DNA from: an uncultured Candidatus Rokubacteria bacterium
Lineage (GTDB): Bacteria; Methylomirabilota; Methylomirabilia; Rokubacteriales; CSP1-6
Assembly (NCBI GenBank): GCA_963771355.1
Contig: CAVYTA010000005.1
Coordinates: 224,001 to 288,000, forward strand
Direction: 5' to 3'
Length of the DNA stretch: 64,000 nucleotides
Shown: positions 30,704-32,155 of the stretch, in pieces
Position numbering within the stretch: position 1 is the first letter of the stretch
Layout of the letters: every line of letters begins with the position of its first letter
Position numbers and translations under genes: made by a program
Notes under the pieces: model-generated
The model's database searches: none
Seen by the model: the letters and a program-made list of their open reading frames with translations, nothing else
What the model was told of the DNA's origin: nothing

Positions 30704-31162
30704 ATGCTGGTCGTGGAGACGCCGCAGGACCTCAGCAAGCACATCGGGGAGACGCTGGGCCCGTCGGCCTGGATCACGGTGGACCAGGCCACGATCGACA
30801 AGTTCGCCGAGGCCACCGGCGACCACCAGTGGATCCACGTGGACGTCGAGCGCGCCAAGCGCGAGCTGCCGGGCGGCAAGACCATCGCCCACGGCTACCT
30901 CACGCTGTCGCTCCTCCCGCGGATGATGCCGGAGCTGCTCAAGGTGACCAAGCGCTCGCGCGGCGTGAACTACGGCTCCAACAAGGTGCGCTTCGTCAGC
31001 CCGGTCCCCGCCGGCGCCCGCGTGCGCCTCCGCTCCACCATCAAGAACGTCGAGCCCGTCGAGGGCAACGGCGTCCGCATCACCTTCGAGGCCGTCATCG
31101 AAGTCGAAGGCCAGCAGCGGCCCGCCATGGTCGCGGAGACGCTCGGCATCCAGTACGCGTAG
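30704..31162 (+). CDS. MaoC-family dehydratase
   Basis: FAEATGDHQWIHVD, TIAHGYLTLSL, NYGSNKVRF. Confidence 0.92.
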   Translation: MLVVETPQDLSKHIGETLGPSAWITVDQATIDKFAEATGDHQWIHVDVERAKRELPGGKTIAHGYLTLSLLPRMMPELLKVTKRSRGVNYGSNKVRFVSPVPAGARVRLRSTIKNVEPVEGNGVRITFEAVIEVEGQQRPAMVAETLGIQYA

Positions 31163-31188
31163 CTCGTACGCGTAGCGCCCGGCTCCAT

Positions 31189-31343
31189 GGATCGGGCGCC
31201 GGGGGGGCGGGCGGGTCCAGTCGACCACGGCGTTTGCGTGCGCTTCTACCGCCTGGGACTGGGCTCCACCGACGCGCGGGGTTCGAGTTGGGGTTGGAGG
31301 GGAACGGGTCTCCTGACCCGCCCGCCCCCCCGACACCCGATCC
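31189..31343 (-). repeat. structured element, copy 1 (29-bp stem enclosing an 89-nt conserved core)
   Basis: Arms 31189-31217 and 31315-31343 pair, with two G-U pairs on the minus strand; core 31222-31310. Confidence 0.8.
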
Positions 31344-31466
31344 CGCTCCCGGTCCCTATCCATTCAGTACGCACAAGGGTAGGGCGCGGGCGGGCGCTGC
31401 GGATCAGGACGGCAAGGGTAAGGGAGTGGGGGAGGGCGGGTGCTGTGGTTCAGGACGCCCAGGGGA

Positions 31467-31616
31467 GGGAGTGGGGGCAGGGGGCGGCGGGGTCAGCGAC
31501 CCGTTCCCCTCCGACCGCAACTCGAATCCCGCGCGTCGGTGGAGCCCAGCCGCGGCGGGTAGAAGCGCACGCAAACGCCGTGGTCGCGGACCCCGCCGCC
31601 CCCTGCCCCCACTCCC
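31467..31616 (+). repeat. structured element, copy 2 (perfect 28-bp stem enclosing the same core, inverted relative to copy 1)
   Basis: Arms 31467-31494 and 31589-31616 are exact reverse complements; core 31498-31586 matches copy 1 at 81/89 positions by manual count. Confidence 0.8.
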
Positions 31617-31642: not shown

Positions 31643-32155
31643 CTACCGCGTGTCGTTCATCCCCAGCGCCCGCTCGATCGCCACCACGTCCGTCGGCCGG
31701 TCGAACGGCGCCGGCGCGGGCTCGCCCGCCGCGCGCGGGCGGCCGATGGAGCGGAAGAACTCCTCGAGGCCGTGGGGGGCCACGATCCACATCATGACGA
31801 GCTCGTCCGCACTCTCGTTGATGATCTCGTGCTTGACGTCCATGCCGAGGAAGCAGGCGGTGCCGGGCACCAGGGGATGGTTCTGCCCGTCCACCACCAC
31901 GCGGCCCTTCCCGCGGAAGCAGATCTGCAGCTCCACCTGATCGCCGTGCGAGTGCTCGCGCACCCGTCCGCCCGGCGCGATGGTCTGGTAGCCCATGGAG
32001 AGCCCGCTGAAGCGCGTCTTGTCCGGAGAGAGCGCGGGATCCGCGTGCCCGTTCGCCGGCACCGGCTGCCAGTAGGACGGGCCCTCGCCGGGCTGCACGA
32101 CCACGGCGTGCCCGCGGTGCGGCTCGCGCCCGCTGGCGGCGCCCGACGCGCTCAC
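31643..32155 (-). CDS. cupin domain protein
   Basis: REHSH...E.......G.G and KHEIIN cupin motifs; GTGA overlap with the upstream gene. Confidence 0.85.
   Translation of the reverse strand: MSASGAASGREPHRGHAVVVQPGEGPSYWQPVPANGHADPALSPDKTRFSGLSMGYQTIAPGGRVREHSHGDQVELQICFRGKGRVVVDGQNHPLVPGTACFLGMDVKHEIINESADELVMMWIVAPHGLEEFFRSIGRPRAAGEPAPAPFDRPTDVVAIERALGMNDTR

What the first reader, a model, noticed from the sequence alone, without database searches (positions are those of the whole stretch)
31189..31616. Two inverted copies of an unexplained ~150-nt structured element with co-varying long stems
Seen: between the convergent MaoC and cupin genes are two copies, in opposite orientation, of an 89-nt core (copy 2: GACCCGTTCCCCTCCGACCGCAACTCGAATCCCGCGCGTCGGTGGAGCCCAG...GGTAGAAGCGCACGCAAACGCCGTGGTCG; 81/89 identical). 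Each core is closed by its own 28-29-bp stem. The two stems differ in sequence, yet each pairs. The two imperfect positions in copy 1 become G-U pairs only on the strand that matches copy 2's sense. A further G-rich arm-like stretch lies between the copies. Inference: structure conserved through sequence change, with strand-specific wobble pairs, points to a functional ssRNA/ssDNA element (novel ncRNA, ribozyme-like RNA or REPIN/MITE-type unit). It is much more than a simple terminator needs, and I do not recognise it as a named family.
Basis: partly seen in the sequence, partly recalled or inferred. Interest (0 to 1): 0.72.

Follow-up and report, generated by a model that had tools for sequence, protein, structure and literature searches.

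The report
Flippable-core hairpin repeat of Rokubacteria
The two hairpins are real copies of a repeat found between genes in many soil Rokubacteria: its core is strongly conserved, it occurs in either orientation between long stems whose two sides change together, and an RNA-guided jumping gene is inserted in some copies; it is likely a slowly spreading, REP-like mobile element, but the enzyme that would copy it was not found.

Summary
Observation confirmed. The two copies belong to a dispersed intergenic family, found in 52 of 124 genomes of the order (1 to at least 32 copies). An 81–93-nt core with conserved motifs sits inside a near-perfect stem (median 37 bp) whose sequence is private to each copy. 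Relatives show that the core occurs in both orientations at the same gene junction, that an unrelated core can take its place, and that one arm can be an inverted copy of host codons. Stem 'covariation' is therefore better explained by template switching than by RNA selection, and the core shows almost no two-sided covariation. An IS110 clade is inserted at the core's 5′ motif, with matching bridge-RNA guides, but it is missing from the genus richest in copies. No RAYT, reverse transcriptase, TnpB, Rfam match or target duplication was found. Best reading: a REP/REPIN-like non-autonomous single-strand element with an unknown copying enzyme (55%); a multicopy structured RNA is the main rival (25%). 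Earlier notes of this scan describe similar long-stem, conserved-core families in Rokubacteria and other phyla.

The parts
30704..31162 (+). MaoC-like dehydratase gene (left neighbour, ends toward the element)
   Evidence: PF01575, E 1.6e-23
31189..31217 (-). Copy 1 outer arm (3' arm on the element's sense strand)
   Evidence: I3, 29 nt, 93% complementary to 31315-31343
31223..31310 (-). Copy 1 core, 88 nt; the middle motif is slightly decayed
   Evidence: HMM hit E 8e-11; 91% identical to copy 2 core
31315..31343 (-). Copy 1 inner arm (5' arm on the sense strand); gives two G·T pairs on this strand
31354..31384 (+). Spacer: small hairpin holding a partial repeat of the MaoC 3' end; likely trace of a local duplication
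   Evidence: D16, 31147-31158 vs 31361-31372, 92%; 9-nt match to the G002 junction
31376..31465 (+). Two orphan arm-like G-rich units of about 45 nt, without a core
   Evidence: D2/D6; 76% alike to each other, 56-62% to copy 2's arm
31467..31494 (+). Copy 2 5' arm
   Evidence: 28 perfect pairs with 31589-31616
31498..31585 (+). Copy 2 core, 88 nt, with three conserved blocks (5' GACCCGTTYCC, middle GGAGCCCAGCC, 3' CGTGGTC)
   Evidence: HMM hit E 1e-13; column conservation
31498..31508 (+). 5' core motif: the position (CC at about 31501-31502) where IS110 relatives are inserted in other genomes; empty here
31589..31616 (+). Copy 2 3' arm
31643..32155 (-). Cupin gene (right neighbour, ends toward the element)
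   Evidence: PF07883, E 3.6e-12

Best explanation
This is a dispersed intergenic hairpin repeat of Rokubacteria that is likely a slowly spreading, non-autonomous REP/REPIN-like element acting as one folded single strand, with its copying enzyme unidentified. Shown: the family, its patchy occupancy of the same gene junctions, both core orientations at one site, an unrelated core at that site, paired changes in the arms, strong constraint on the core motifs, and IS110 insertions at the 5' motif. Inferred: the sense strand folds into a long stem capped by a junction (GACC/GGTC with a bulged T, plus a 4-5-bp GTTYC/GGRRY helix). A protein acting in trans would recognise that cap, while the stem needs only to pair. 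Replication template switching would keep the arms matched, extend them into host DNA and flip the core. The window pair likely arose by local duplication and one flip. The IS110 is likely a parasite using the repeat as a landing site.
For: Family: 52 of 124 genomes, patchy by genus (g15 15/15, g42 0/8, g43 0/6). Arms: 122 of 134 copies have stems of 25 bp or more; 117 of 134 own-arm pairs score 20 or more, against 14 of 1500 cross-copy pairs; 4322 Watson-Crick pairs vs 242 mismatches. Placement: intergenic, 28 convergent, 35 tandem and 5 divergent of 79 (my own gene caller). Gain or loss: the element lies upstream of alaS in L076 but in none of 30 other loci; at one junction 6 of 17 genomes carry this core, 3 an unrelated core and 1 the arms alone. 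Flips: 3 of 9 orthologous site clusters hold both orientations, and 3 vs 3 at that junction. Templating: the L076 arm mirrors the last four recX codons; 78 two-sided vs 53 one-sided or broken arm changes in 18 non-independent pairs. Template switching is reported to homogenise arms and invert spacers (PMC8604942, abstract; PMC8794818, passages). Constraint: 19/600 vs 130/255 differences at conserved vs variable columns in six position-found copies. Strand: G·T excess on the sense strand in both transcription contexts (19 vs 5; 26 vs 13). IS110 guides match and co-vary with targets.
Against: No copying enzyme was found. Y1_Tnp: 0/1 own, 6/44 genomes, 0/11 in the richest genus. RAYT model 0/5. 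A TIR-flanked Y1 transposase occurs in 28/159 genomes but 0/17 in that genus. None of 150 neighbouring genes is a transposase, recombinase or reverse transcriptase. There is no target-site duplication and no two identical copies among 30 in G089 (by eye), so no recent movement is shown. The architecture is the reverse of REPINs, whose arms are the conserved part. Strong constraint at each site also fits a host function. Opposite orientations at one site could be independent insertions rather than flips. The inner helix is short and varies almost only on one side (8/500 shuffles reach the paired percentage, on a structure derived from these sequences).
Confidence: 0.55

Rival explanations
1. 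A multicopy structured RNA family, comparable in behaviour to TwoAYGGAY. The sense strand would be transcribed, the stem cut by RNase III, and the conserved cap bound by a host protein.
For: Wobbles favour one strand. 61 of 66 armed copies chosen only on the 5' motif are full length and keep the 3' motif. 8 of 9 close pairs are back to back, as 68% of TwoAYGGAY doublets are (bioRxiv 10.64898/2026.09.22.753630, section 8 read). Cores carry 1-6 GGA words.
Against: No Rfam hit at gathering level, and no TwoAYGGAY hit at all, in the window or in 20 loci. CsrA is present in 2 of 45 genomes. Core loops fold no better than column shuffles. No sigma-70-like promoter or terminator in the window locus and no conserved flank motif. 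G·T wobbles also occur in DNA hairpins.
Confidence: 0.25
2. An invertible regulatory switch: the core would be flipped between its arms to change read-through or mRNA stability of the neighbouring genes.
For: Both orientations occur at 3 of 9 site clusters and at one junction in genus g15. L057 and L069 have nearly identical arms around inverted cores.
Against: The arms are not conserved, whereas invertase sites are (own knowledge). No recombinase among 150 neighbours. In tandem gene contexts the orientations are 19 vs 24. No mixed population was observed.
Confidence: 0.07
3. Mainly a 3'-end mRNA stabiliser or terminator; the core is a passive relic carried along.
For: Copies lie close behind stop codons (medians 13 and 41 nt) and avoid divergent regions. 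An earlier scan note on a similar family preferred this (e1-4531810, unchecked).
Against: The core is far more constrained than the stem. The wobble bias follows the core, not the transcribed strand. There is no T tract.
Confidence: 0.06
4. The IS110 recombinase itself spreads the element.
For: It is the only mobile enzyme found on the element: 3 insertions in this family, 2 in a variant and 1 probable, among 12 places.
Against: It is found in 11 of 159 genomes, with 0/17 in the richest genus and none in G000. Its guide treats the element as target. Sister IS110s are guided to other hairpin families, like IS621 on REP (PMC11208160, passages).
Confidence: 0.05
5. Assembly fold-back or chance.
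For: Long inverted repeats can confuse assemblers; L210 shows an N gap beside one copy.
Against: The copies differ (91% cores, unlike arms). 200 distinct armed cores come from many assemblies. G002 carries copy 2's arms at the same junction.
Confidence: 0.02

Closest known systems
REPINs / REP-BIME elements with RAYT transposases (PMC3116915, passages; bioRxiv 10.1101/2021.07.10.451892, passages)
   Same: Extragenic, hairpin-forming, non-coding, dispersed, diverse within a genome, kept at orthologous sites, found after or between gene ends, and used as IS110 targets.
   Different: Here the arms vary and the loop is conserved, the reverse of REPINs. No RAYT is associated, the stem is much longer (median 37 bp), and the core occurs in both orientations.
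TIR repeats of TIRYT transposases and CGTC REPs (PMC3733652, abstract and section 16)
   Same: The inner end of the arm often reads GGGGTC, close to the GGGGWSAS motif of TIRs. CGTC REPs also lack a known transposase.
   Different: The TIR-flanked Y1 transposases of this family lie mostly in genera poor in the element and carry their own conserved TIRs.
TwoAYGGAY RNA motif, RF01731 (bioRxiv 10.64898/2026.09.22.753630, section 8)
   Same: Multicopy, variable copy number, long basal stem, divergent doublets, GGA-containing words.
   Different: No RF01731 hit, no two covarying AYGGAY hairpins, and a different phylum.
IS621 on E. coli REP and ISPpu10 on a Pseudomonas stem-loop repeat (PMC11208160, passages; bioRxiv 10.64898/2026.03.19.712850, abstract and outline)
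   Same: An IS110 with left and right target guides in its 5' non-coding end sits at a fixed dinucleotide of a host repeat.
   Different: The core is CC rather than CT, and sister elements are guided to several different long-stem families. This describes the parasite, not the repeat.
Bacterial MITEs such as Correia, RUP and ERIC (recalled, not from a call)
   Same: Short, non-coding, hairpin-forming, dispersed.
   Different: No conserved terminal inverted repeats and no target-site duplication.

Membership tests
REP/REPIN-RAYT | Extragenic, multicopy, hairpin-forming | tested here: met
REP/REPIN-RAYT | Two conserved REP arms around a variable spacer | tested here: not met
   arm-arm identity median 56%, core motifs near invariant
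REP/REPIN-RAYT | A RAYT (Y1 HUH) gene flanked by the repeat | tested here: not met
   the MAGs are incomplete
REP/REPIN-RAYT | Excision or insertion intermediates in reads | not testable with these tools
   only low-share contig runs were available
MITE of a DDE transposase | Conserved terminal inverted repeats | tested here: not met
   outer ends are private to each copy; no flank consensus
MITE of a DDE transposase | Target-site duplication | tested here: not met
   longest direct repeat outside the arms 4.30 vs 4.15 in controls, 176 copies; arm extension could hide one
TwoAYGGAY RNA (RF01731) | Covariance-model match | tested here: not met
TwoAYGGAY RNA (RF01731) | Two covarying hairpins with AYGGAY loops | tested here: not met
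TwoAYGGAY RNA (RF01731) | Divergent doublets and variable copy number | tested here: met
   8 of 9 pairs; 1 to at least 32 copies
Self-cleaving ribozyme | Match to a known ribozyme model | tested here: not met
Self-cleaving ribozyme | Self-cleavage in vitro | not testable with these tools
   bench test
Retron / RT-linked ncRNA | Linked reverse transcriptase | tested here: not met
   0/1 own and 0/5 high-copy genomes
IS110 target repeat | IS110 inserted at a fixed dinucleotide with matching target guides | tested here: met
   both junctions are visible for L218, L219 and L228, one each for L217, L224 and L227
Invertase-driven inverton | Conserved inverted recombination sites and an invertase; both orientations within a population | tested here: inconclusive
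   both orientations between genomes; arms not conserved, no recombinase neighbour; populations not tested

The most novel reading that the evidence does not exclude
These repeats are one family of an undescribed class of host-maintained single-strand elements: interchangeable, flippable conserved caps presented on self-correcting stems and read by an unknown, non-RAYT enzyme. Several cap families compete for the same gene junctions, and each is tracked by its own reprogrammed IS110 bridge RNA. The partner would be a new nucleic-acid-mobilising or -binding protein.
Probability: 0.3. Interest if true: 0.8.

Novelty: new variant of a known kind. Interest (0 to 1): 0.52.

Why it matters
It points to a repeat system in an abundant soil lineage whose copying enzyme or host reader is unknown, and it gives exact motifs for fishing that partner out. 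It is a natural caution for RNA discovery: the long-stem 'covariation' here goes with core inversion and host-templated arms, as template switching predicts. It also yields a set of natural IS110 bridge-RNA/target pairs with a CC core and co-varying guides. It is not yet shown to do anything for the host.

Tried and rejected
Rfam: only sub-threshold miRNA-like hits, in the window and in 20 loci. Copying enzyme: Y1_Tnp; RAYT model NF047646, accession recalled, 0/5; TIR-flanked Y1 transposase, mostly in element-poor genera; reverse transcriptase; TnpB 0/5; four-helix-bundle IVP 0/5; DUF559 one weak hit in 5, not flanked; IS91 0/5 with no positive control ringing, so uninformative; stand-alone GIY-YIG in 2 of 5, not flanked; no long-range inverted repeat in G000 of this family around a gene. 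CsrA sponge: 2/45 genomes. An internal 43-nt duplication of the core was not significant (P=0.38). Group II intron domain 5, retron and sigma-54 resemblances were considered by eye from recall and dropped. Viruses: 0 hits to the full pattern; 28 partial-pattern hits, none matching the core HMM. RNA runs: small shares only, with one depth-2 contig over 31489-31674, so no evidence on expression. The 100% pairing of the inner helix is partly built in by the anchoring pattern, so one search is used instead. Literature: 8 searches listed no paper on this family; subscription journals are largely outside the library and no supplements were read.

Full report
1. Observation. All features are present as described. 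The cores are 81/89 identical and inverted. Copy 2 has a 28-bp perfect stem; copy 1 has a 29-bp stem with two mismatches that are G·T only on the strand matching copy 2's sense. I call that strand S and its complement R. The neighbours are MaoC and a cupin. Rfam gives nothing above noise.

2. It is a family. G000 holds three copies: the two here and one on C7. BLAST matched 27 of 61 relatives. A sequence-only model found it in 52 of 124 genomes of the order, 50 of 107 in the window's family, with 1 to at least 32 copies (32 was the scoring cap). It is patchy by genus. No viral contig carries it. I infer the Rokubacteria lineage of the window from those titles.

3. Anatomy. 122 of 134 copies with full flanks have a stem of 25 bp or more; arms from different copies almost never pair (14 of 1500). 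Median stem length is 37 bp (5-95%: 27-49; 176 copies), and arm-to-arm identity between copies is 56%. Defined by their ends alone, 200 distinct cores are 81-93 nt long; 184 carry the middle block GGAGCCCAG and 16 a variant or different middle. RNAalifold on 78 cores finds no compensatory pair, mutual information shows no convincing helix, and the loops fold no better than column shuffles as RNA or DNA. The only inner structure that survives is inferred: GACC/GGTC with a bulged T, and a short GTTYC/GGRRY helix. On 48 diverse cores 97.3% of cells pair, mostly through wobble-compatible one-sided changes; 8 of 500 shuffles reach this and slid controls give 33-56%. The structure was derived from these sequences, so this is modest support.

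4. Strand. With symmetric scoring, G·T on S outnumbers G·T on R by 95 to 52 and by 57 to 27 copies, with 55 ties; copies are related, so the p-values (5e-4, 0.0014) overstate. The excess holds whether S (19 vs 5) or R (26 vs 13) is the transcribed strand, so it follows the core and not the mRNA. The S 3' end lies a median 13 nt from a facing stop codon (n=95), against 41 nt on the 5' side (n=49). Gene calls are from my own simple model.

5. Behaviour at orthologous sites. At the MaoC-cupin junction, four genomes of the genus have a short spacer, one has a single different copy, and G002 has one hairpin with copy 2's arms around a chimeric core with a 3' end on both sides and a decayed middle motif. 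Copies 1 and 2 are 91% alike, against 68-74% to the C7 copy, and the spacer repeats the MaoC end, so local duplication plus one inversion is the likely origin. At one junction in genus g15 (17 genomes, found by flank): six carry this core, three each way; three carry an unrelated core of about 85 nt between similar long arms, also both ways; and L237 has nearly the arms of L235 with the core gone and a remnant of the opposite orientation. The rest have remnants, other hairpins, nothing, or a different upstream gene. Upstream of alaS the element is in L076 and in none of 30 other loci, and its right arm is an inverted copy of the last four recX codons. Across the collection, 3 of 9 site clusters with both flanks homologous hold both orientations, and arm changes are two-sided 78 times vs one-sided or broken 53 times in 18 overlapping pairs. 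Arm homogenisation with spacer inversion is the reported signature of template switching (PMC8604942, abstract; PMC8794818, passages). Independent re-insertion at one site is not excluded.

6. Constraint. In the six position-found copies, conserved columns differ 19/600 times and variable columns 130/255 (the column classes come from motif-selected copies). Among metagenome hits chosen on the 5' motif only, 61 of 66 armed copies are full length with the 3' motif and 3 are internally deleted. Left out of that count were 42 hits without an arm (mostly chance), 7 with the middle motif but no arm, and 8 near contig ends. Thirty copies in G089 are all different. This resembles the slow, persistent REPIN populations described in bioRxiv 10.1101/2021.07.10.451892 (passages) and implies selection on each copy or on the ability to be copied. 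Close pairs are back to back in 8 of 9 cases.

7. IS110. In G127 an IS110 (P0001; PF01548 and PF02371) begins right after the left arm and GACCC, and the core follows behind an N gap. Homologues occur at 12 places in 11 of 159 genomes. Three sit in this family, two in the variant with the same ends, one probably (contig end), five in other hairpins, and one in another context. Their 5' non-coding ends hold a left guide equal to the left target and a right guide complementary to the right target, and the right guide changes with the target in seven elements; both guides fall in an internal loop of the predicted fold. This matches the bridge-RNA scheme of IS621 on REP (PMC11208160, passages). 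The clade was not found in g15 (0/17) or in G000, so it is best read as a parasite.

8. No copying enzyme. 150 of 171 neighbouring genes were scanned; they are metabolic, transport and repair genes, some have no family, one is a Uma2 fragment, and none is a transposase, recombinase or reverse transcriptase. Family searches were negative or did not track the element. There is no target-site duplication. These are incomplete MAGs, and a family outside those I tried remains possible.

9. Mechanism. Most likely (0.55) a REP/REPIN-like non-autonomous element: strand S folds, the conserved cap is read by a trans-acting protein, the stem needs only to pair and is kept paired by template switching, and new copies land behind stop codons. 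The family, flips, core replacement, constraint and IS110 targeting are shown; folding, the reader protein and transposition are inferred. The main rival (0.25) is a multicopy structured RNA like TwoAYGGAY, which shares the doublet habit but not the model match. Expression could not be judged.

10. Novelty. It works like a REP/REPIN but fails two defining tests (conserved arms, RAYT), so it is not filed as a member. Eight literature searches listed no description of it. The scan's own unchecked notes report similar long-stem, conserved-core families in Rokubacteria, Omnitrophota, Patescibacteria and others. A look-up by sequence found no look-alike, so I cannot say whether any is this family. 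IS110s in host hairpins were also noted often. What this locus adds is the combination of core inversion, core replacement, host-templated arms and guide-matched IS110 insertions. Verdict: new variant of a known kind, interest 0.52.

Noticed in passing
G000 C7:435685-435775, C8:5979-6059, C5:662558-662649, C6:1996025-1996105, C6:2396308-2396390, C7:155458-155540, C7:431746-431826: A second long-arm family (7 copies seen) with G-rich variable arms and a short conserved loop containing CTCAGTACAGCATTC-like words.
   Followed up: no
G000 C1:165159-165285, C5:216680-216804 (outside the window), C5:125443-125619, C6:1873458-1873585: A MITE-like family with more conserved terminal repeats and a conserved inside, unrelated to the finding.
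   Followed up: no
L239, L236, L242, L078:5730-5802, L035:617-685, L210:2939-3000: Family E: an unrelated core of about 85 nt between long variable arms, with an inner hairpin whose 3-nt loop reads GAA, GCA or AAA (DNA-type GNA mini-hairpin, recalled) and a compensatory change; not found in G000.
   Followed up: partly
L220, L221, L223, L225, L226: Sister IS110 elements sit in other hairpin families; where both sides could be read, the right guide matches the target.
   Followed up: partly
L200:928-1925, L202:1365-2350, L203:966-1956: Y1 transposases of about 300 aa flanked by 24-27-bp terminal repeats starting GGGGTCAG (TIRYT-like), common in genus g46 (12/21).
   Followed up: partly
L324, L336, L379 (metagenome): Internally deleted copies that keep both end motifs and the arms.
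   Followed up: no
arms of 176 copies; window 31421-31494: 63 of 176 5' arms fit a three-G quadruplex pattern; the significance was not tested.
   Followed up: no
window 31151-31176: A 10-nt direct repeat of the MaoC 3' end just behind its stop codon (sequence).
   Followed up: no
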